Shown: piece after piece, positions 989-19,712 of the stretch | How positions within the stretch are numbered: the stretch's first letter is position 1 | How the letters are laid out: each line of letters opens with the position of its first letter | NCBI GenBank assembly: GCA_000182565.2 | Contig: KQ257476.1 | Reading direction: 5' to 3' (one strand) | Source: Spizellomyces punctatus DAOM BR117 | Lineage: Eukaryota | DNA length: 20,000 bases | Notes under the pieces: generated by a model | What the model saw: only the letters and a program-made list of their open reading frames with translations | What the model was told of the DNA's origin: nothing | Database searches by the model: none | Made by a program: the position numbers and the translations under genes

Positions 989-1362
989 CAACAAATAGAA
1001 CCGAGTCGCCTGAGGTCAATACATCCTGGAACCTCTCCGCAAGGCCGTAAATCGCACGCTCCAATCGAATAGGCAATGCGGCCAACCTCATCCTGCCCTC
1101 GTCATTCCTATTATCTTGGTGCACCTTCTGGGAGATCCTGTGCAGTTTGTGGGGAAAACTGCCACGACACAGACCTGCGTGAAAGTTAATTCCCGTGGCC
1201 GCCATCCGGATCTGCTGCCGAGAAAGACCACGTCATCCGATGGATCTTTGGAACTTGGATTGCCGCTGAGCATTTGCCCGATAGCGCCGTAGGGGGGGGG
1301 GGGGGGGGGGGACTTGATTATCTGAAGCTTTGGCACATATGGAAATGTGCTGTCGGGAGTAT
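989..1362 (-). pseudogene. Internally deleted, frameshifted fragment of a paralog of the SpoIIIAA/Ycf45-like ATPase
   Basis: The reverse complement matches three blocks of the ATPase in order: ~3113-3215 (FPY.P.LQIIK..QMLSG.PS), ~3349-3366 (P.DDVV) and ~3502-3739 (MAATGI.FHA.LCRGSFP..LHRISQK...ERAIYGLAERFQD.L.S.DSVLFV). It stops just before Walker A and contains a 20-G homopolymer at 1292-1311. Confidence 0.9.
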
Positions 1363-1372
1363 GGGTGCACGG

Positions 1373-1516
1373 TCGCTTTTCGCGACCATGCGTCGTTTAG
1401 GCCGTTGTCTGGTGGGGGTAAGGATTTCCCACGTATCACGTATCTGTTGTTTGGGCCGTTGTTTGAAGCGGTGGGGATTCCCTAAACGTGCCCGTCGTTT
1501 GGGCTGTTGTGCGGTG
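1373..1516 (-). repeat. Right arm of the inverted repeat (partner 553-699)
   Basis: Reverse complement reads caccgcacaacagcccaaacgacgggcacgtttagggaatccccaccgcttcaaacaacggcccaaacaacagatacgtgatacgtgggaaatcc... Confidence 0.9.
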
Positions 1517-2010: not shown

Positions 2011-4387
2011 ATGCGGACCCCTGCGCAACAAGAGGAAGACGAAGCCTTAGCTTGGGTTCATACGAGAGTACGAACTATGTGCGCGAGAAACCAGGAATGG
2101 AATATCAGCGATCTGGTCAACGTGTTGAGAAGGGAAAACGACGCATTGACAGCCGCCTTCAGCAGAATAGGGAAGAACTGGAGTACCATTCTGGATAGGC
2201 ACTTTCCGAATGAGTTTGACTTCAGAACCGCGGAAGGAAGAACCTACCTGCGGCTCCGACCCGGCGGCGGCGGAACCCCGTCTGACGACGGCGGCTCTGC
2301 TGCCGTCGGGAAGGAAGTGGCTACTGACGTTGGGAAGGAGGTCGCTATTAACGTTGCGAGATTGGCTTTAGTGAGCCCAATGAGTAACCGAGCCAACGTC
2401 ACGAAAATAAACAGCAAGCAACTGTATGATGAGATGAGAGCGATCACAGAAGAGGCCCCGTACGTAGTCGTCCATGATTGGGGTTCTGCTTTTCTCGTTG
2501 GTGTTCCTGGGGGACGCACCTTTGTTGCTGTCCCATCCCTTCATGCCAGCAATATGAAAGAAATTCGAGATCATCAACGCAACTTGTTTGACAAAGGGAA
2601 GATGGTCATCAGTTGGCATTCCTCTGCTAGCCCTCCCGGTACTGAAGAGTGCACCGTTTGGAATTTCTACAGGGGTTTGGTACAACTGCAAAAGCCGTTG
2701 AAGAATAAGCTACTAATACCCATCAACGAAAGCTCGTACGAAGAATTTCGAGATGTTTTCGCCGCAACCTTCTCCATCCCAAACGTCTCCGTTCCTGAAC
2801 TTGGAGCGAACACCGAGCAATGGCTTACGTCGGCCGGCAATGAAGCGATGGCGTTGATTGATAGCTGCATTCTACTCGGCCAATTAAAAATAATGATCGA
2901 GCTGCGCTTATCAGAGGGCAAAGAGACAGTTGGCAAGGTTCCTAAGCTGCCGATTGTCGCCGCCTACGACGAAGACGCCTACGATATCGACTTATTAACA
3001 TCTTTTGACAAGGCGTGGAAGGCAATCCACCGTTTTCAGAACCCGACTGCAAAATTAGTCCCCGTGCCCCCATTCCCCGGTGGTGATATCCTTCAAGCCC
3101 GCAGGCAATGTCTTACTCCAGACGGCAGATTTCCATATGCGCCAGAGCTGCAGATCATCAAGCCTCCCCTACGGCGCATATTGCAAATGCTTAGCGGTGA
3201 TCCAAGTACCAAGGAGAACTACCTCGACCCATGGTACGACGAAGAAGATCGCGTCTATACTGTACACGAAGGCAGCCCCAGCGGCGTCGCCGGCTCCTTC
3301 CGGACGGCTGGTGATGCCGCCGGGGCCGCCACCGACAGTGAGCAAGGTCCATTGGATGACGTGGTCGACCTGCGACAAGGGCTCCTGGATGCTTTCAAAC
3401 CCACTGAGCTCGAAAACCTCAGTGAAATCTATCTGGATGTGGGAGACGCAGCGTCCGCTATCACGTTCAAGGGAGAATACCGGGAGTTCTCTGTGAAGCC
3501 TCTTTCTCGGGCGCAGATCCAGATGGCGGCGACGGGAATTCCCTTTCATGCCGATCTGTGTCGTGGCAGTTTTCCGAACGAACTGCACAGGATCTCGCAA
3601 AAGTTGCAGCGAGATGTGCTCGATGACGAGGGCAAGATGGGTTTAGCTGGATTGACCATTCGAGTGGAGCGGGCGATTTACGGGCTTGCAGAGAGGTTTC
3701 AAGATATACTGAATTCAGATGACTCTGTTTTATTTGTTGGCCTGCCGGGTGCTGGGAAAACCGCCGTGTTACGGGATGTGTGTGCATACATAGCAGAGGG
3801 AATCCATCCAAGAAAACTTGCATTAGTAGATTCATCGCAAGAACTTGGCGGTGCAGACTTCGTGCGGCACAAATGTCTTGGCCGTACAAGGTGGTTTGGC
3901 GGTTTGGGCTGGGAGGGCGATCTTGCGGAACTAATGTCGCTGATCATGCGCAACCACACTCCACTTGTGATGGCCACCGACGAGATCACGGCTCGATCGG
4001 AAATCGACGCCGCCCGCAGCATCAAAGAAAGTGGTCTTCGTATGCTTGCCACCTGCCATGGGTCATTCCAGGATTTGATCAAGCACCCTGACAAGAATAC
4101 TCTGCTCGGTGGTATTGCATCTGTGACAGTCACGGATGAGAAGGCGCAAAAGGGGGGCCGCTTTGTGAAGACCATGCAGTCGCGAGCAAAGAGTCCGATA
4201 TTCGATGTGATAATCGAAATCCACTCGAAGACACAGTATGTCGTCCTATCGAAACATCGGCGAGGCGGTAGATCGTGCCATTGACTTCCAACCTGTTGTT
4301 GCGGAGCATCGCTGGCTCGATGAAAGAGGAGTCCTGATGTCCCGCTTCTCGCCGACATTTATCTTTGAGATTGCTCCGACGTTGTGA
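2011..4387 (+). CDS. SpoIIIAA/Ycf45-family AAA+ P-loop ATPase with a long N-terminal extension. The uninterrupted ORF ends at 4284; a probable 1-nt frameshift at ~4246 extends it to 4387.
   Basis: First ATG at 2011. Family-type motifs: LHRIS, GLTIRVERAIYG, Walker A GLPGAGKT (3739-3762), VDSSQELGG, NHTP + Walker B VMATDEI, ATCHG, LLGGIASVTVTDE, PIFDVIIEI. No introns seen. Confidence 0.88.
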
Positions 4388-5425
4388 CGGTCGGCGAACC
4401 TCCAGGGGCTCCGGCGGCGTCGGTCAGCTCGATCGATGCTGCTGGAGCTCCCGGGCTCTGGCGCAATTATTGGTGATGGACACAAATGAGTGCGTGACAG
4501 ATGCGTAACGGTCATCATCCTGCTGCTGTCTTGGAATAACTTGTAAATTTGTGTATATCTGATCTGTGTTGCTTGCTGATGTGAAGATTTCTCGCTTCTG
4601 TATCATTTGCAATATAAAATATCTGAAACCATGACAGTTTGGTGACTTTCAAGTTCAGTCTGAATCGATTCATCACTTACTACAGTGTAGCGCCATTCAA
4701 TTGACATGGCCGACTGCTTTGACCCATTTTTCTCTTGAACTAGAACAGCAAATGGTGCTGGGTTTGTTACAGAGTACTTATAGAGAAAACATTCTCCGAT
4801 GCTAGGAAATACCCAGCCTCTTTTATTGCAGTTGAAAGCGTGACAAACTTGTGAACTAGTCTGTAATAGGTGGAAAACGGCCAGTCGATCATAGTTTGAA
4901 ATGTCGCGCTTGATCACGCTACTAAGTTCTCTAGGGAGTACCCAATATTGATAATGAATAAATCCTATGGAGGTTTCAATAACGACAGAGTTCAAAGTCC
5001 ACCCAACCAACTGTTTCATAGTATGCTACTATTATCGGTGCCTCACCAATGAGATTGCAAACTTGAGGAGTATACAATGTTGTGGTGTCATCGGTGAATT
5101 TCGACTTTGCAGGCCGGCGCTCTGTTATCATCCCCCTGAACGTAACAAAAACCCGAAATGATATCCTAGAGGTACAATTGTAGAGGTACAATTGTTGATG
5201 CCTTGCAAGAATGCATTTTGGCGCTTCTGGCTCGCGCACCGACTAGGCGGCTTCTAGCGCTATCACCAAAGGAACTGGCGCTAAGACGCGCATATCGTAA
5301 TTAAGAGACCCGCCGCGATTCCAGACATGCCTGAGTTCACAAGTCTGGAACAGAATGGCGGCATATTAAGTGGAAATGGCTTCTGATTCGTGACGGACAA
5401 TACTTCTTATGCTAATGATGTGCAG

Positions 5426-5476: not shown

Positions 5477-5562
5477 CGCTCCCGGCCAGGGTCGAACTGG
5501 CAACCTCTCGGTAGCTATTCTGGATAACAGCCGAACGCGCTAACCAATTGCGCCACGGAAGC
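5477..5562 (-). tRNA. tRNA-Asn(GTT) with a 12-nt intron (5513-5524)
   Basis: Minus strand GCTTCCG-TGGCGCAATTGGTTAGCGCG-TTCGG CT GTT A [TCCAGAATAGCT] A CCGAG-AGGTT-GCCAG TTCGACC CTGGC-CGGGAGC-G. Acceptor, D, anticodon and T arms all pair; the intron is at the canonical 37/38 position. Confidence 0.97.
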
Positions 5563-13964: not shown

Positions 13965-15604
13965 ATGCTCTCAAGTTCCCTGCCGGCTATTCGACTTTGC
14001 ATCCTAGGTGCACGTAGCGTTACGTCGTCCTCTCGCTGTTGCGCCGCAGCACTATCTTCTTTCGGACGTTCATCCCTTGCAGGCACCTTTCCCACCTCCT
14101 CACCCAGCCTCATGCAATCGACCAGGACGGCTGCGAATGTTGCAACTGTTGAGTCGTTTTCAAAAGAACAGTTGCACCCCCGTTCTCTAAAGTCCTCTGA
14201 ACCGCCGACAGTTCCTACAATTGACTTTGGTTCATTTAATAATGTGACTGGTGAAGGTGCAAAACACGTCGCTGACCAAATTCTGAAAGCCGCCCTGGAT
14301 ACAGGTATTGCTCTCCATTTGCTAGGTCCCTTGGTGCGCGCTGCTTTCTGAATCACGCTTGTACTGGGACAGGCTTCTTCTACCTCTCCAATCACGGGGT
14401 TCCTCAAAAAGACATTGACGATATGTTTGAACTGGTAAGTTATTATATTACCGTCCACCGCCAAATGGTTTATGGTTAATTTTGGCCGCCTGCATCGTAG
14501 ACGAAGAGATTTTTTGCAAAAGGGAGTGCCCATAATGCCAAATATCCGTACAACCCAGAAATAAACTCTGGCTATCTTGGAATCGCAACAGAAAGGTACG
14601 CTCCTGGACTAATGCATACGTAGCAATAGTGAAAACTCATAGATAATTCTATGTTCCACAGACTGAATCCAAATTCAGACGAACAGGAGTACAAAGAGGC
14701 AGTAAACATCCCGAAATTGAATGGCCGTACCGCTCGTAAAGAGGACTTTGCTCCTGAATTAGCGAACAATTGGGAGCTGCTGACGCGGTTTCATCGAGTA
14801 AGAAACTCCAAACCATCAAATATAACTGGATCTAGTTCTCTTACGCATTTTATATGTTGCATAGTCTGCTCACGACTGCCTTCTCCGCGTATTACGTGCA
14901 TTTGGAATGGGGCTTCAAATTCCAGAGTCTGCTGGCGGCCTCGACTATTTTACATCCTGCCATCGTTACGAAGAATCGAGTGCTGATATCCTGCGAATCT
15001 TGTGGTACCCCGCTATACCCGCGGACAGAAGCACAAAATGGACGCGAGCTGCTGCGTAAGGCTTTGGATCATAAACAATGGTTTCGCCACTACTGACTTG
15101 ATACCGCAACGCTAGCCATAGCGATTACGGCAGCCTTACCTTATTATTCCAAGACTCAACTGGGGGGCTGGAGGCCCTTTTGCGGAGTGGGAACCATGAA
15201 CCGAAATGGATACCGCTCCCTCCACGCCCAGGAACCATTGTTGTAAACACGGGAGATCTGATGGAATTCTGGACTGAGGGACTTGTAAAGTCAACAGCTC
15301 ACCGAGTAGTGTTCCCGGATGGCCCTGCAGCCCATCAGGACAGGTCAGCACAGGTTTGAGATTTCCTTGTCAGCGCATAGAGCATACTAACGTGGCTCTT
15401 AGGTACACAATCGCCTACTTTGGGCAGCCCGAAGACTCTACACCACTGACTACAATTCCCAGCGAAATTGTCAAAAGCAAAGTCCTTCAGGATGCCAAAA
15501 CTGGGAATGGCGAAGCACTGTTCCGTGGCCCAACGTCCATGTCTCAGGAGAGGGCAATGACTGCTCTGGAACATTTGAGAATGAGGTTGAGCGAAATTCA
15601 TTAA
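13965..15604 (+). CDS. 2-oxoglutarate/Fe(II)-dependent dioxygenase (IPNS/DIOX_N family), 417 aa, 7 exons (13965-14304, 14373-14434, 14501-14595, 14662-14797, 14865-15055, 15116-15343, 15403-15604)
   Basis: Six GT-AG introns give a continuous frame with VPTIDF, GFFYLSNHGV, LRILWYP, HSDYGSLTLLFQD..GGLE, VNTGDLMEFWT, STAHRV and RYTIAYF (HxD...H triad, RxS/T). The Arg/Ser-rich N-terminus resembles a mitochondrial presequence. Confidence 0.95.
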
Positions 15605-16957
15605 GTGGCCCGTAGGCTCTACTGCGGGATGGACATTTATTTTGATTTTTTGTCGAATATTTGGCTGCATTGCGGTTCTGCAGTCGGTGTAGTTTAGCTT
15701 AGTTTTATATGTATAGTCAAAATGGTGCAAGCTGTAAAGTTATTAGAATTGATATGATGTGCAATGAGATACCTCACAAGATAATGGTAATTTTGGCACC
15801 GCCGGCAATTCCTATGCTTTTCGATCTTGGAAAGCACAAGCAAAAACTTCTCCGATTTACTCTATGGACCGCCTGCGTGTGACTTCATCTCGGCCGACAT
15901 TATTCTTTGAGCACCTGCTGAACTCTACGGCACAGCTGTCTCATTCAGGTTTGTATGGACATCTAAGGGGCTCTTGTGGTGCGACGCAATTGCTCATACC
16001 TATATCCCCGGCAGCTTGCAACCAAATGTATCGCAGTGAACGGCAACAGCCCGTGTTCAGCTCGAATCTTGCAAAATTCCTACACAGCCTGCAAATGCAA
16101 GTGATACACCTTCTACCGCATTACTTTTGCAGTTGCCCAGTTTTTTTTTTTTTGTTTTTTAAATAGGCATTGTTCACTGGCTTAAGAAAGCAGCACCGGC
16201 TATTTCTGCTATGGAAACTGCTACAGTTGTAAGTCATTGGATCCTTCTCAAGTACTCATGTACGCCATCGAGTCTCGTTCTGAGAACTCATTTATCACAT
16301 TTCATCCTGCTAGTAGTAGGCAGTAATGAAGTTCGGTCATGCATGTATGATGCTACCGCTGACGGCGTTGTTCACGTATGGTTTATGAAGGAACAGCTCC
16401 TTCCAGTTGTGAAAGATCCAAAGAATGTCAATGGCAACTGCCTAACCCCATATCCTGCATTCACCCCAAGTGAAATTCTCCTCACTCTGATCTGATCATT
16501 GCGGTCACATTTATTCATGTTTCTATAGGAAATGCTGCGTTGACATGCTCCCAAGTATGTGTATGCCCCTTCCTTGTTCAATTTCCTGACATGCTCCAAA
16601 GTATATATGTGCCAACCGCAATTCCGTCAACTGCTATCTCTGCGCCTCTTGAGTAGGCACGGATATCGCCCCCATCCGCTGTCCTGACCGAACTGATTCG
16701 TGGCAGCGTTGATACTCTGCTCGAGAAACATCGCTTGTGGTCTTCTAATGGCCAATGCCCCGGTCATTCTTGCTGGTGGATATATCGTGCCCGGGCAGCA
16801 TGAACCAACGAAAGAAAGGAAAAGAAGGTGGTAAGTGTACGTCCAAACATAGAGTTGATGTGGATGCACCCCAATTGACACTACTAAGTGCTGCCTCTTT
16901 TGCACGTATTCACATGGACTATTCGGCCACGGCGCGTTAGAATCGTAAAGGGATAAG

Positions 16958-17219
16958 GCTGCCTGCTCCTGCTTAGCGCCGACCGAAGTCAGAAACCGGA
17001 TCGGTGTAGGGACCAGCGAAGATTCAGCAATCACCGCCAGTCCAGCCTCCGAACTGGTGCAGAACACTCTCTTTCCAACCAACCCATTTGGAATGGAAGA
17101 AAAAGAGCGGCTGGGTCGCGGTCAAGCGCGCACAGGGTCTACCGAAAGGTAGACCTAAAGTTGAACCCATTGCACGGTTATCGTGCGGCTTGAGGGATCC
17201 CTCCTCTCCCCACAGCAAC
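16958..17219 (-). ncRNA. Unidentified structured RNA, copy B, inside putative intron 17255-16919
   Basis: About 90% identical to copy A while flanks diverge. Terminal stem GTTGCT/GGCAGC, C(UUCG)G hairpin CTGAC-TTCG-GTCGG, hairpins GGTCTACC/GGTAGACC, GCACG/CGTGC and GGACTGGCGG/TCGCTGGTCC. G-U pairs indicate the minus strand. Donor GTAAGG at 17255, branch CTAAC at 16940-16936, acceptor TAG at 16921-16919. Confidence 0.65.
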
Positions 17220-17602
17220 GTCGAATGATTTGGAAACCATGAAAACTCACCTTACTGTTTCGTTGCTTGACGCGACGGAGAGCGGATGCGCGAGCCAGGT
17301 GTGCCGGGGCAGGAAGCGAGAGCCAGGTCAGACAGCAGACGATGAGGCCGCTTTGGCTGAGGAAGTTCGGGAAAATGTGTGCAAGACTCGCCGAAAACGA
17401 ACGCCAAATTGGACGTAGACGGGCAGTATGAACAGTCCGAGAAAGAAACAAAAAAAGATGATCAGCATACATCCGAAAAGTATGTTCATGCACCCCATTT
17501 GACTACTATAGAAGTTGCTGCCTCTTTTGCACGGAAAAATGTCAAATCATTGACCCGCTAGACGATTCGTCTAGGGACGCGTTAGAATCGTAAAGGGATA
17601 AG

Positions 17603-17860
17603 GTTGCCAGCTCCTGCTTACGCCGACCGAAGTCAGAAACCGGATCGGTGTAGGGACCAGCGAAGATTCAGCAATCGCCGCCAGTCCAGCCTCCGACTGG
17701 GTGCAGAATACTCTCTTTCAAACCGACCCATTTGGAATGGAAGAAAAAGAGCGCTGGGTCCGGTAAGACGCGCACAGGGTCGACCGAAAGGTAGACCAAA
17801 AATGAACCCATTGCCCGGTTATCGTGCGGCCTCAGGGATCCCTCCTCTCCCCACAGCAAC
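17603..17860 (-). ncRNA. Unidentified structured RNA, copy A, inside putative intron 17896-17571
   Basis: Same fold as copy B, with terminal stem GTTGCTG/TGGCAAC. Donor GTAAGA at 17896, branch CTAAC at 17585-17581, acceptor TAG at 17573-17571. Confidence 0.65.
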
Positions 17861-17980
17861 GTCGAAATGATTTGGGAACGATGAAACTCATCTTACCGTT
17901 TCTTTGACGCGAAGGTCGCTCTTTGGGGGAGCGGCGATGAGGTTGGGAGGAAAACGGGAAACGCGTTGAGAGGAGAGGCC

Positions 17981-18100
17981 TTAAATACTGCGCAAAACCC
18001 CCTTGATGGAACGGCACAGTCATGAAATGTGATCATGTAACCAAAAGAAGATTTATGAAATTGTTACGGCACAGTCATGCCGAAGAGACTTGGTCACGTG
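17981..18100 (-). promoter_or_regulatory. Candidate Pol II promoter of the structured-RNA host transcript
   Basis: TATTTAA (17987-17981) followed by a pyrimidine-rich stretch, about 85 nt upstream of the first donor. Exact 14-mer acggcacagtcatg at 18011-18024 and 18066-18079. CACGTG at 18095-18100. Confidence 0.4.
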
Positions 18101-19712
18101 TGTGTCATATAACCTAGTTGGGATAAATGATATTGATTTCATTCCATTTGCGAGCGCAAAAATCACGATCGCACTGAATGCTATGCCTTGGAAGAGCGGT
18201 ATCTAGTGGTTCTTACCAATACCATCAGGTGCCATTTCTATCACAAGCAATTGATCAGATTGTATTTTAGAAGCGAGGAATAGGATAGCAATGGACAAGT
18301 TCCTCCACCGGCCATTGAGACAAAGTATGAGACGTATAGCAAGAGTCTAACATACCGTTCCGTTTTCGAATTATGCGGGGATTATTAGACATATGTGGTA
18401 TTCGCAGCCGCAAAGTTCAAGTAACTTTTACAAAGATGGTATTTGAAATGAACGTATGCTACGGCAAGAGTACATTCGTGCAGGATGTTTCCACAAGGAC
18501 ACCGTCGCTGCGCGTGCATGCTCAAAACAGTGCAGCACGCGGAGATAGGACTGAGGTTCGTGCAGGTAGGACAGCTGACATTTTCCAGTGTCAAGTGGCA
18601 TGGTTGATACAGAAATGTTTCCTCATGGATTGATGGTAGCCTGCCAAATGCGCTCTCTCGGGACGTTAACATTTCAGCATAATTTCTGGCCGCATAGGGT
18701 TCCTTTAGTCTGCAAGGATGAAACCATAAGAAGCAATTCACCATTAAGTCATAGGAATATCTGCAATAAAGCTGCTAGTCATGGGCTTGCGAAATGGGAC
18801 GATAGAATGTCGGCATAATCGCCCAGGTCTCGCTATGTAATTAGAACTACGACCCTTGATATGGAGATGAGCCAGCATAGTCCACAGGATCTAGTCACTA
18901 ATAGGCATTCCCAGCCTCTTGTACAGCGTTGAGTTCGAGGCAAACTCATCAGCAAATTTGATATGGACATGTATGGCCTGGCATGTTCTCATTATCCACA
19001 ATTCACTACATTGGCTCGGAGGATAGATAGAGAGGGTCACGCTGTCGAACGATATGGTCCACATAAGAGCAGGCTATTACAACATCAGAGCCTGGTATCT
19101 CGGTGGGTGGGAGAGACAGTCGATAGTTGTAGGAGGGTTTTGGACTTGGAAATACACTGATTCATGATCGGTCGTAAACGCCATGGAGTTATTCTGATTA
19201 AATCTACTGAACAAAGTCAAAGTAAAAACAAACTGGCAAAACTGATGGAAACATCGTTCAATTACAGCCAAAATTCGATCACGATATCTTGAGACAAAAC
19301 ATTGCTAATCCCATGTGGTCTGTTGGTCGGAATCAGAAATGTGATCGCAAACTCTAAGATAGGTACCTGCGAAAAATGAAGTTTGACCAAACTGTTGACA
19401 TTGTGAAAAAATGGGTGAGCCACGGATTTTCAGTAGGTTGATCAGAATGGACGTTGGTTACAGAGTTTATTCCTAGAGACCAGGAAAGCGACCAGGAAAG
19501 CGACTTAGGCAGGAGGAAGAATCATCGTCTTATTACTATTTCCACTGCATCAAGGAGACAGGCATCAACAAGTTGAAATACAAGAGCAATCTTCCCCTCC
19601 CATAGATTCCCGTATATAACGTTGATATGGTGCCCTCTGACCAAAGATCAGTATGGCCATGCCGACTTTGGTAATGATGACAGGCGCCAGAAGTTTCAAA
19701 TCAAGGAGACAT

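What the first reader, a model, noticed from the sequence alone, without database searches (positions are those of the whole stretch)
16919..17896. Two tandem spliceosomal introns each carrying the same unidentified ~260-nt structured RNA in an apparently non-coding host transcript
Seen: two ~90% identical blocks on the minus strand, each bracketed by a GTAAG donor and CTAAC...TAG. The introns are 326 and 337 nt, about 4-5 times longer than the other introns here. The core closes 5'-to-3' with a terminal stem and holds at least five hairpins, including a C(UUCG)G tetraloop. Several differences between copies keep pairing (U-A to U-G in the terminal stem; CCAGTT versus CCAGTC against GGCTGG), though two weaken a stem in copy A. 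The sequence between the copies is not conserved and has no convincing ORF. Established: fungi host snoRNAs and TPP riboswitches in introns. I could not find C/D boxes, a canonical H box, the TPP core, RNase P/MRP CR-I/CR-V, SRP helix 8, U-snRNA or hammerhead motifs. Inference: a possibly undescribed class of intron-encoded RNA (stable intronic RNA, RNP scaffold or splicing-control element).
Basis: partly seen in the sequence, partly recalled or inferred. Interest (0 to 1): 0.85.

Follow-up and report, generated by a model that had tools for sequence, protein, structure and literature searches.

The report
Duplicated long structured introns, chytrid fungus
Two neighbouring copies of an unusually long, well-folded intron-like RNA element sit in an apparently non-coding gene of the soil chytrid Spizellomyces punctatus; it matches no known RNA family, but it is still open whether it is a useful RNA, a splicing aid or a self-copying intron.

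Summary
The repeat is real. Two minus-strand blocks (17571-17896, 326 nt; 16919-17255, 337 nt) each run from GTAAG to CTAAC...AG. They are 95% identical at aligned positions. The window is from Spizellomyces punctatus.

- Rfam gives no hit, even at E<=10.
- Both copies fold on their own into the same three domains, closed by two long-range helices.
- The 18 core substitutions spare or compensate base pairs on the minus strand only.
- The introns are better conserved than their flanks.

Against it:
- The duplication is not confined to the introns. Flanking 'exon' sequence is duplicated too.
- A low-coverage DNA run labelled as the same species holds at least four more copies, which are diverged or carry deletions. 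One has lost the GT donor.
- No spliced read was seen. About 13 RNA reads, from paralogues, run unspliced across the donor.
- Long, structured, near-identical fungal introns with compensatory changes are already described (introner-like elements and same-gene duplications, PMC3609843).

No related sequence from another species could be fetched. Verdict: a genuine unidentified structured element, most likely a segmentally duplicated long intron whose folded core is under constraint. A new RNA class is not shown.

The parts
17981..17987 (-). TATA-like TATTTAA, 91 nt upstream of donor A. Putative Pol II promoter of the host transcript; copy B has no counterpart.
   Evidence: Read. Function is inferred.
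18011..18079 (-). Two exact copies of the 14-mer CATGACTGTGCCGT (18011-18024 and 18066-18079) just upstream of the TATA-like box. Possible promoter element.
   Evidence: 2 matches; 0 of 200 shuffles give 2.
17897..17955 (-). Putative exon 1. The 5' end is only guessed, about 30 nt after the TATA-like box. Its last ~20-60 nt are homologous to the 3' end of exon 2.
   Evidence: The transcript start is not shown.
17571..17896 (-). Intron-like copy A, 326 nt: GTAAGA donor, CTAAC at 17585-17581, AG at 17572-17571.
17595..17852 (-). Core A, 258 nt, from GGGGAGAGG to CCTTATCCC (the closing helix). Domain I is 17756-17842, domain II 17710-17752, domain III 17612-17708.
   Evidence: Domain z-scores: -1.66, -2.82, -1.95.
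17256..17570 (-). Putative exon 2, 315 nt, with no supported ORF. It holds a conserved ~48-nt block at 17486-17533.
   Evidence: (family D6).
16919..17255 (-). Intron-like copy B, 337 nt: GTAAGG donor, with a second GTGAGT 5 nt downstream. CTAAC at 16940-16936, AG at 16920-16919.
16950..17211 (-). Core B, 262 nt. Domain I is 17113-17201, domain II 17066-17108, domain III 16967-17064. This is the better-folded copy.
   Evidence: Domain z-scores: -4.06, -4.80, -2.06.
17907..17911 (-). CGCGT in exon 1, predicted to pair with ACGCG at 17578-17582, which overlaps the branch site. This is the terminal stem of copy A. In copy B the same stem is 17270-17274 with 16933-16937.
   Evidence: helix 1: 5 pairs, invariant in both copies. 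Prediction only.
16510..16918 (-). Putative exon 3, running to an AATAAA at 16515-16510. It holds a conserved block at 16862-16906. The 96-codon open frame P0003 has no homologue.
   Evidence: The 3' end is not shown, and no RNA read was laid here.

Best explanation
A roughly 640-bp exon-intron-exon unit was duplicated in tandem within an apparently non-coding, TATA-driven minus-strand transcript of Spizellomyces punctatus. Further, decaying copies of the unit lie elsewhere in the genome.

Each unit carries an unusually long spliceosomal intron (326 and 337 nt). Its middle 258-262 nt fold into three domains. Two long-range helices loop this core out. One is GGGGAGAGG/CCUUAUCCC. The other is a terminal CGCGU/ACGCG stem that joins the exon just before the donor to the nucleotides at the branch site. 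With the core looped out, the donor lies about 53 nt of linker from the branch site.

The folded core, not the exons, is the part kept by selection. Most likely it leaves the transcript with the excised intron as the host's real product, as snoRNAs do in non-coding host genes. It lacks snoRNA boxes.

Shown: the duplication and its extent, the splice-like signals, the common fold predicted independently for both copies, the strand-specific sparing and compensation of pairs, the lack of any Rfam or protein match, and the existence of paralogues.

Inferred: transcription from the TATA-like box, actual splicing, release and stability of the core, and any function.
For: - Organism: the window ORF at 2011-4281 is 100% identical to SPPG_08794 of S. 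punctatus DAOM BR117.
- Repeat and signals.
- Extent of duplication: 499 aligned columns at 82.6%.
- Intron versus flanks: the intron has 16 mismatches in 323 aligned positions and 17 gap columns. The flanks have 28 mismatches in 176 aligned positions and 98 gap columns.
- Fold: both copies independently give the same domain I, II and III folds. In copy B, 0 of 200 shuffles fold as well for domains I and II, and 4 of 200 for domain III.
- Helix 4 carries five substitutions, and all keep pairing: G-U to C-G, G-C to A-U, G-U to G-C.
- Permutation over the well-aligned core (18 substitutions), with copy A's MFE as reference: 2 broken pairs against 8.5 expected (P=0.00045), and 2 compensatory pairs against 0.14 expected (P=0.007). 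The plus strand gives P=0.25 and 0.23.
- Several helices rely on G-U pairs, which exist only on the minus strand.
- No Rfam hit at E<=10.
- No Pfam hit for 7 ORFs. Searches (plus-strand core ORF; exon-3 frame) found no protein homologue.
- A TATA-like box and a repeated 14-mer lie upstream of copy A only. That fits one transcript carrying both copies.
- Contigs of two other public runs hold 196-197 nt of the core with 3 differences each and nothing else of the 2.2 kb laid.
Against: - No splice joint at 17897/17570 or 17256/16918 was listed in any of the four runs laid.
- Only 32 RNA reads were laid, from about 6% of run X21. Six were at least 99% alike. About 13 reads run across donor B without splicing. 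All of these carry 4 fixed differences, so they come from one or more expressed paralogues.
- No RNA read lay on exon 3.
- Whole-intron MFE z-scores are weak: -0.84 and -1.85.
- With copy B as reference, copy A's changes break 6 pairs against 9.1 expected (P=0.087). Copy A looks mildly degenerate.
- Similarity runs past the donor into the exon.
- In one paralogue (X2 record 2) the exon part is identical over 35 nt, while GT has become CG and the intron's 5' part carries most of the 30 mismatches and 14 gapped letters.
- Gene conversion between the copies could also keep them alike. The X9 and X12 contigs mix A and B states at 17677 and 17065.
- 99 of 103 predicted pairs never vary.
Confidence: 0.4

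Rival explanations
1. It is an introner-like or other self-copying repeat. On this reading the unit belongs to a low-copy mobile or segmentally spreading DNA family. The stable fold serves its propagation, or merely lets it be tolerated as an intron, and it has no cellular function.
For: - Run X2 (DNA-like, low coverage, same species label) holds the exact locus unspliced (record 6, 17194-17863, 0 differences).
- X2 also holds at least four diverged copies: record 2 with 30 mismatches, 14 gapped letters and GT changed to CG; records 3 and 8 with internal deletions; and record 7.
- Introner-like elements are described as longer than regular introns, with lower free energy, canonical splice signals and many compensatory mutations. 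They decay in sequence and length (PMC3609843, passages read).
Against: - Similarity is not confined to the intron. Copies A and B and X2 records 2, 7 and 8 share exon-like flanks. That points to DNA-level duplication of a larger unit, not intron transposition.
- Only a handful of copies were seen.
- There are no inverted repeats of 20 nt or more, no tRNA, 5S or 7SL head, and no poly(A) tail by reading.
- Copy number could not be measured because no genome is held.
- No paper in the library links introners with Spizellomyces in this sense (2 papers, titles and abstracts only). One search found 1 paper for introners with Chytridiomycota; the passages read report no chytrid introners.
Confidence: 0.25
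2. It is not an intron but a discrete RNA of about 335 nt. On this reading its ends pair (CGCGU...ACGCG), and it is cut out of a polycistronic precursor carrying two copies. GTAAG and CTAAC are then internal motifs.
For: - High conservation between A and B starts at the 5' strand of the terminal stem, 10-15 nt before GT. It ends at the 3' strand, right after CTAAC.
- RNA reads from paralogues run unspliced through the donor (about 13 reads, no joint).
- The X12 RNA-library contig runs through the branch site and about 6 nt past the AG.
Against: - Both copies keep a good donor and a CTAAC placed 11 and 18 nt before an AG. That is unlikely to be retained by chance in both.
- Weaker similarity continues further upstream and downstream of the terminal stem.
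- An internal T5 run argues against Pol III (by reading).
- The reads are few and come from other copies.
Confidence: 0.15
3. It is a neutral duplicate. On this reading an ordinary tandem duplication is kept homogeneous in its middle by gene conversion, and the folds are incidental to a GC-rich sequence.
For: - The X9 and X12 contigs carry mixed A and B states at 17677 and 17065.
- Whole-intron z-scores are weak.
- Copy A carries destabilising changes.
- Only two sequences were compared.
Against: - Five substitutions in one helix all keep pairing, and the signal is confined to the minus strand.
- Domains I and II of copy B beat all 200 shuffles.
- Conversion alone does not explain why the tract should end at the intron borders.
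Confidence: 0.12
4. It is a diverged member of a known RNA family that Rfam models miss, such as U17/snR30-type H/ACA, RNase MRP or U3.
For: - Two copies of U17 sit in consecutive introns of a non-coding host gene in humans. This is recalled; only listed papers naming U17HG.
- The size fits.
Against: - cmscan of 2 kb on both strands against 4227 families gave no match at E<=10.
- By reading, there is no ACA 3 nt from a plausible 3' end, no hinge box between two hairpins, and no RUGAUGA/CUGA pair next to the terminal stem.
Confidence: 0.05

Closest known systems
Same-gene intron duplications (SGD) by segmental duplication in fungi (Collemare et al. 2013, PMC3609843; passages read)
   Same: Near-identical introns lie side by side in one transcription unit, with the exon sequence on each side duplicated as well.
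   Different: The paper reports SGD introns with the length and free energy of ordinary introns. These two are about 3.2 times the one annotated intron measured here. They have well-folded domains. They are better conserved than their flanks. The host seems non-coding.
Introner-like elements (ILEs) of Dothideomycetes (same paper; the original 2012 report is only recalled)
   Same: Canonical splice signals, greater length than regular introns, stable predicted structure, compensatory changes, and decaying copies.
   Different: ILEs occur in tens to hundreds of copies in unrelated genes. Here only a handful of copies were seen, and they share flanking exon-like sequence. The taxon is a chytrid. 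My searches found no report of ILEs in chytrids.
Non-coding snoRNA host genes with the functional RNA in consecutive introns (U17HG/SNHG3, GAS5, SNORD116-type repeat units). This is recalled; one search gave listings only.
   Same: A TATA-driven transcript without a supported ORF, introns better conserved than exons, and the same RNA in two neighbouring introns of a tandemly repeated unit.
   Different: There is no C/D or H/ACA box arrangement and no Rfam hit. Conservation covers the whole intron, including the donor and branch regions, not just an inner cargo. Release of a stable RNA is not shown.
Zipper stems of long S. cerevisiae introns (Rangan et al. 2025, PMC12350175; passages read)
   Same: [quoted passage not shown] Here it is a 9-bp helix with 44 + 9 = 53 nt of total linker, inside the paper's 42-85 nt range.
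   Different: The helix ends 9 nt from CTAAC, under the paper's 20-nt minimum on the branch side. The looped-out part is a conserved three-domain core, whereas yeast zipper regions are poorly conserved.

Membership tests
Introner-like element (ILE) | Canonical donor, branch point and acceptor | tested here: met
   GTAAGA/GTAAGG donors, with CTAAC 11 and 18 nt before AG in the two copies.
Introner-like element (ILE) | Longer than regular introns, and more stably folded | tested here: inconclusive
   326 and 337 nt against one annotated intron of 102 nt (n=1). Whole-intron z-scores are -0.84 and -1.85. Domain z-scores run from -1.66 to -4.80.
Introner-like element (ILE) | Many near-identical copies in unrelated genes | not testable with these tools
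   No genome is held. Contigs of run X2 show at least four further copies. Both metagenome scans were uninformative.
Introner-like element (ILE) | Similarity confined to the intron (flanks unrelated) | tested here: not met
   A and B align over 499 columns including the flanks. X2 records 2, 7 and 8 carry exon-like flanks.
Same-gene duplication (SGD), segmental type | Duplicated intron with duplicated exon sequence on both sides, in one gene | tested here: met
   That both copies lie in one transcript is inferred, not shown.
Box C/D snoRNA | RUGAUGA and CUGA boxes next to a terminal stem; a match to an Rfam model | tested here: not met
   No Rfam hit at E<=10. By reading, the bases before the 3' strand of the terminal stem are CUAA, not CUGA, and AGAUGAG in copy A is GGUGAG in copy B.
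Box H/ACA snoRNA (including U17/snR30) | Hairpin-hinge(ANANNA)-hairpin-ACA, with ACA 3 nt from the 3' end | tested here: not met
   No Rfam hit. The only ACA in the 3' half (CCCUACACCG) is followed by a further conserved hairpin and the closing helix.
Zipper-stem intron (S. cerevisiae definition, PMC12350175) | Stem of at least 6 bp; total linker 42-85 nt; at least 10 nt from the 5'SS | tested here: met
   A 9-bp helix (helix 3). It starts 44 nt after the donor and ends 9 nt before CTAAC, giving 53 nt of linker.
Zipper-stem intron (S. cerevisiae definition, PMC12350175) | [quoted passage not shown] | tested here: not met
   9 nt between CCUUAUCCC and CUAAC in both copies.
SINE / MITE | Terminal inverted repeats, or a tRNA/5S/7SL-derived head with an A-rich tail; target-site duplications | tested here: not met
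   0 inverted repeats of 20 nt or more in 16000-19000. No Rfam match. No A-rich tail by reading. Target-site duplications were not looked for systematically.

The most novel reading that the evidence does not exclude
Chytrids may have a so far undescribed family of structured RNAs of about 260-335 nt. Each would have three domains closed by two long-range helices. They would be made from the introns of dedicated, tandemly repeated non-coding host genes, as snoRNAs are, but without C/D or H/ACA boxes. They would act as a stable RNP or as a splicing-control element. The decayed paralogues would be dead gene copies.
Probability: 0.2. Interest if true: 0.7.

Novelty: new variant of a known kind. 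Interest (0 to 1): 0.4.

Why it matters
If the core is a stable product, it would be a new RNA family from an early-diverging fungal lineage whose non-coding RNAs are almost unstudied. It would also show that the 'non-coding host gene' arrangement is used for cargo other than snoRNAs.

If instead it is a self-copying or segmentally spreading structured intron, it would extend introner-like behaviour to chytrids. It would offer a small, tractable case of how long introns stay spliceable in a genome of short introns, by looping out the insert. S. punctatus is reported to be transformable (recalled).

Either way the element is absent from Rfam, and a genome-wide and cross-species search is worth doing.

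Tried and rejected
1. Whole-genome search: not possible, because no genome is held.
2. Earlier findings of this scan: four look-ups, all empty.
3. First metagenome scan, a 26-nt pattern from the 5' core with 3 N: 0 hits.
By eye, nearly all sit in a ...YDTSGPYTDP... coding context, the conserved motif of bacterial thiC (protein name recalled). None resembles the core beyond the 19-mer. I treat this as coincidence, not homology. In that frame the window has a stop 7 codons upstream and no further resemblance (by reading).
5. Viral contigs: two patterns, 0 hits each.
6. Looking for copies through spurious ORFs in protein databases:
   - plus-strand 88-aa ORF: none;
   - exon-3 frame P0003: none;
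   - minus-strand 63-aa ORF: two hits, P0004 (12 weak stretches in a 63-aa tandem-repeat protein) and P0005 (a bacterial-type repeat protein). I judged both to be repeat-inflated artefacts.
7. More copies inside the window: blastn with word size 7 and nhmmer --max found only A and B.
8. Tandem Repeats Finder: nothing. Its longest period is 500, and this repeat has a period of about 644.
10. The bacterial promoter/terminator scan is irrelevant for a eukaryote and was at shuffle level.
11. The conserved ~48-nt block in the 'exon' is not specially folded (z = -0.03 and -0.14). By reading it has no conserved C/D boxes.
12. Considered and dropped by reading only:
   - a spliced-leader-like reading: the leader differs between copies, and the Sm-like AUUUUUGG is in copy A only;
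   - a telomerase template: none found;
   - LTR/TRIM or split-direct-repeat ends: no TG...CA ends, and no element ORFs nearby;
   - an rDNA-derived piece: X2 depth over the core is about 9 or less against about 3 for single-copy sequence.
13. Hand-mapping of X2 record 2's listed differences onto the fold gave a mixture of kept and broken pairs, as expected for a dead copy. It was not computed and is not used as evidence.
14. Supplementary tables of the introner surveys could not be seen. They might list chytrid genomes.
Full report
**What is there.**
On the minus strand, two blocks repeat with a spacing of 641-645 nt. They form direct-repeat families of 133, 69, 43, 41 and 21 nt at 88-95% identity. 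Reading the sequence gives these boundaries:

| Copy | Range | Length | GT | CTAAC | AG |
|---|---|---|---|---|---|
| A | 17571-17896 | 326 nt | 17896-17895 | 17585-17581 | 17572-17571 |
| B | 16919-17255 | 337 nt | 17255-17254 | 16940-16936 | 16920-16919 |

The window comes from the chytrid Spizellomyces punctatus DAOM BR117. The ORF at 2011-4281 is 100% identical to SPPG_08794. The one annotated intron I could reconstruct in the window, in that gene, is 102 nt. The two blocks are thus about 3.2-3.3 times as long (n=1).

**The duplication is larger than the introns.**
blastn aligns 17906-17420 with 17265-16792: 499 columns at 82.6%. Segment by segment:

| Segment | Matches | Mismatches | Gap columns |
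|---|---|---|---|
| Introns | 307 | 16 | 17 |
| 60 nt upstream | 37 | 5 | 36 |
| ~170 nt downstream | 111 | 23 | 62 |

So a whole exon-intron-exon unit was duplicated in tandem, and the intron part has stayed much more alike than its flanks. That matters, because the two 'cargoes' are not independent.

**Is it a known RNA?**
- cmscan of the whole window at gathering thresholds finds only a tRNA at 5477-5562.
- cmscan of 16400-18400 with permissive filters finds nothing, even at E<=10.
- By reading, I see no C/D box pair next to the terminal stem and no hairpin-hinge-hairpin-ACA layout.
- No ORF in or around the unit has a Pfam match (7 ORFs).
- No ORF has a database homologue. The two hits are repeat proteins, which I regard as artefacts.

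**Is it folded, and is the fold kept?**
Whole-intron MFE z-scores are unimpressive: -0.84 for A and -1.85 for B. For the unit bounded by the terminal stem they are -1.46 and -2.60, against -0.89 and -1.74 for the reverse complements.

Taken apart, however, both copies give the same three domains independently:

| Domain | z-score, copy A | z-score, copy B | Shuffles folding as well (copy B) |
|---|---|---|---|
| I | -1.66 | -4.06 | 0 of 200 |
| II | -2.82 | -4.80 | 0 of 200 |
| III | -1.95 | -2.06 | 4 of 200 |

RNAalifold adds two long-range helices. One is GGGGAGAGG/CCUUAUCCC, which closes a core of 258 or 262 nt. The other is a 5-bp stem, CGCGU/ACGCG. It pairs exon bases 10-15 nt before the donor with the bases at and after the branch A.

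Of 103 predicted pairs, 99 never vary, 2 changed on both sides and 2 on one side. With two sequences the tool's own shuffle control is uninformative (123 of 500).

I therefore asked a different question. Take the MFE of one copy alone: do the other copy's substitutions avoid or compensate its pairs more than randomly placed substitutions would? Over the well-aligned core, with 18 substitutions:

| Reference | Broken pairs (observed / expected) | P | Compensatory pairs (observed / expected) | P |
|---|---|---|---|---|
| Copy A, minus strand | 2 / 8.5 | 0.00045 | 2 / 0.14 | 0.007 |
| Copy B, minus strand | 6 / 9.1 | 0.087 | 2 / 0.15 | 0.008 |
| Copy A, plus strand | 6 / 7.8 | 0.25 | 0 / 0.12 | 1.0 |
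| Copy B, plus strand | 6 / 7.9 | 0.23 | 1 / 0.13 | 0.12 |

An earlier run that included a misaligned stretch gave P=0.0017. The asymmetry between the two references reflects that copy A carries mildly destabilising states: a U.C mismatch in the UUUC hairpin and two lost pairs in domain II. There is thus a modest, strand-specific signal that an RNA fold on the minus strand is being kept. It is best preserved in copy B.

**Expression and other copies.**
The single read-laying run covered 16100-18300 with four runs.

- *X2*: contigs labelled as the same species, with DNA-like low depth.
  - It holds the locus exactly and unspliced (record 6, 17194-17863, 0 differences).
  - It also holds at least four other, diverged copies.
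  - Record 2 has 30 mismatches and 14 gapped letters over 17099-17302. Its GT donor has become CG, yet its last 35 nt of exon are identical.
  - Records 3 and 8 have internal deletions.
  - Record 7 is another diverged copy.
  - Several of these carry exon-like flanks. The family therefore spread as a larger DNA unit and includes dead copies.
- *X21*: raw RNA reads, about 6% of the run read.
  - It gave only 32 reads, of which 6 were at least 99% alike.
  - About 13 reads pile up over 17241-17284 and run straight across donor B. All carry the same four differences, so they come from one or more expressed paralogues.
  - No splice joint was listed, and no read lay on exon 3.
- *X9 and X12*: contigs of 196 and 237 nt, the second from an RNA library of a root metagenome.
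  - They cover 17647-17842 and 16953-17149, with 3 differences each. They cover nothing else of the 2.2 kb laid.
  - They carry mixed A and B states at 17677 and 17065.
  - I cannot tell whether they come from the same species, a relative or a paralogue. An RNA library may also contain DNA.

Splicing, a stable product and the host transcript therefore remain unshown. The little RNA evidence there is does not show splicing.

**Context.**
A TATA-like TATTTAA lies 91 nt upstream of donor A (17981-17987). It is preceded by two exact copies of a 14-mer (0 of 200 shuffles give two). Copy B has no such upstream element. That fits one transcript carrying both copies. An AATAAA lies at 16515-16510.

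**What it most likely is.**
The facts fit best a segmental, same-gene-type duplication of a long intron whose looped-out, three-domain core is under constraint.
- The closing helix leaves 44 + 9 = 53 nt of linker between donor and branch site. That lies inside the 42-85 nt range used to define yeast zipper stems (PMC12350175).
- The 9 nt on the branch side is below that paper's 20-nt minimum.
- Because the intron is better kept than the exons, and the spliced transcript has no supported ORF, I think the core is the product, as in non-coding snoRNA host genes.
- My confidence in this whole chain is only about 0.4, because transcription, splicing and release are all inferred.

**Rivals.**
- *An introner-like or otherwise self-copying repeat (0.25).* Long, stably folded, near-identical fungal introns with compensatory mutations and rapid decay are exactly how introner-like elements are described (PMC3609843). 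But those sit in unrelated genes in tens to hundreds of copies, whereas here the flanks travel with the intron.
- *A discrete RNA of about 335 nt defined by the terminal stem, not an intron (0.15).* The unspliced reads and the match between the high-conservation borders and that stem favour it. The well-placed donor, branch and acceptor signals in both copies speak against it.
- *A neutral duplicate homogenised by gene conversion (0.12).*
- *A diverged member of a known family missed by Rfam (0.05).*

**Novelty.**
- The sequence family is not in Rfam.
- I found no paper connecting Spizellomyces with introners (2 papers, titles and abstracts only) or with such an RNA (7 papers, titles and abstracts only).
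- I found none describing introners in chytrids (1 paper; its passages, read, mention none). PMC4457414 does not mention chytrids.
- Supplementary tables could not be seen.
- The kinds of thing it could be are all known: a duplicated structured intron, an intron-hosted RNA in a non-coding host, or an introner-like element. I therefore rate it a new variant of a known kind and of moderate interest.
- The bold reading, a new box-less intron-hosted RNA family of chytrids, keeps a probability of about 0.2.

**What could not be done.**
No relative from another species could be fetched. No genome is held. Viral contigs gave nothing. The decisive tests are a whole-genome and cross-species search with covariation analysis, full-depth RNA-seq mapping and a northern blot.

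Noticed in passing
window 5477-5562 (-): tRNA gene with a 13-nt insertion after the anticodon loop, so an intron-containing tRNA. Rfam tRNA score 52.6 bits.
   Followed up: no
window 990-1378 (-): A diverged partial copy of SPPG_08794, the gene at 2011-4473 (+). tblastn gives 74.7% over 79 aa and 53% over 45 aa. It looks like a pseudogene fragment just upstream, in the opposite orientation, and suggests a duplication-prone region.
   Followed up: no
window 18011-18024 and 18066-18079 (-): The exact 14-mer CATGACTGTGCCGT occurs twice, 55 nt apart, just upstream of the TATA-like box of the putative host gene. 0 of 200 shuffles give two matches. It is a possible transcription-factor site.
   Followed up: partly
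window 17486-17533 and 16862-16906 (-): A second conserved block of about 45-48 nt (GTGCAAAAGAGGCAGCA...TGGGGTGCAT) lies 25-40 nt after each intron, in the 'exon'. It is not specially folded (z = -0.03 and -0.14) and has no conserved C/D boxes by reading. Its purpose is unknown.
   Followed up: partly
window 17641-17659 and 16997-17015 (-); loci L001-L118: The 19-mer GGTCCCTACACCGATCCGG of domain III equals the codons for GPYTDP. No similarity extends beyond the 19-mer. I take it as chance.
   Followed up: yes
window 16541-16567 and 16587-16613: A 27-nt direct repeat (85% identical, spacing 46) lies in the putative 3' part of the host transcript (family D5).
   Followed up: no
window 17241-17256 (-): Copy B has two overlapping donor-like sites 5 nt apart, GTAAGG and then GTGAGT. 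Copy A has only the first, with ATGAGT at the second position. Alternative donor use is possible.
   Followed up: no
window 14651-15604 (+): ORF fragments here look like a multi-exon 2OG-Fe(II) oxygenase-type gene. This rests on a motif recalled from reading and was not searched. It ends about 1 kb from the putative 3' end of the host transcript, and the two converge.
   Followed up: no
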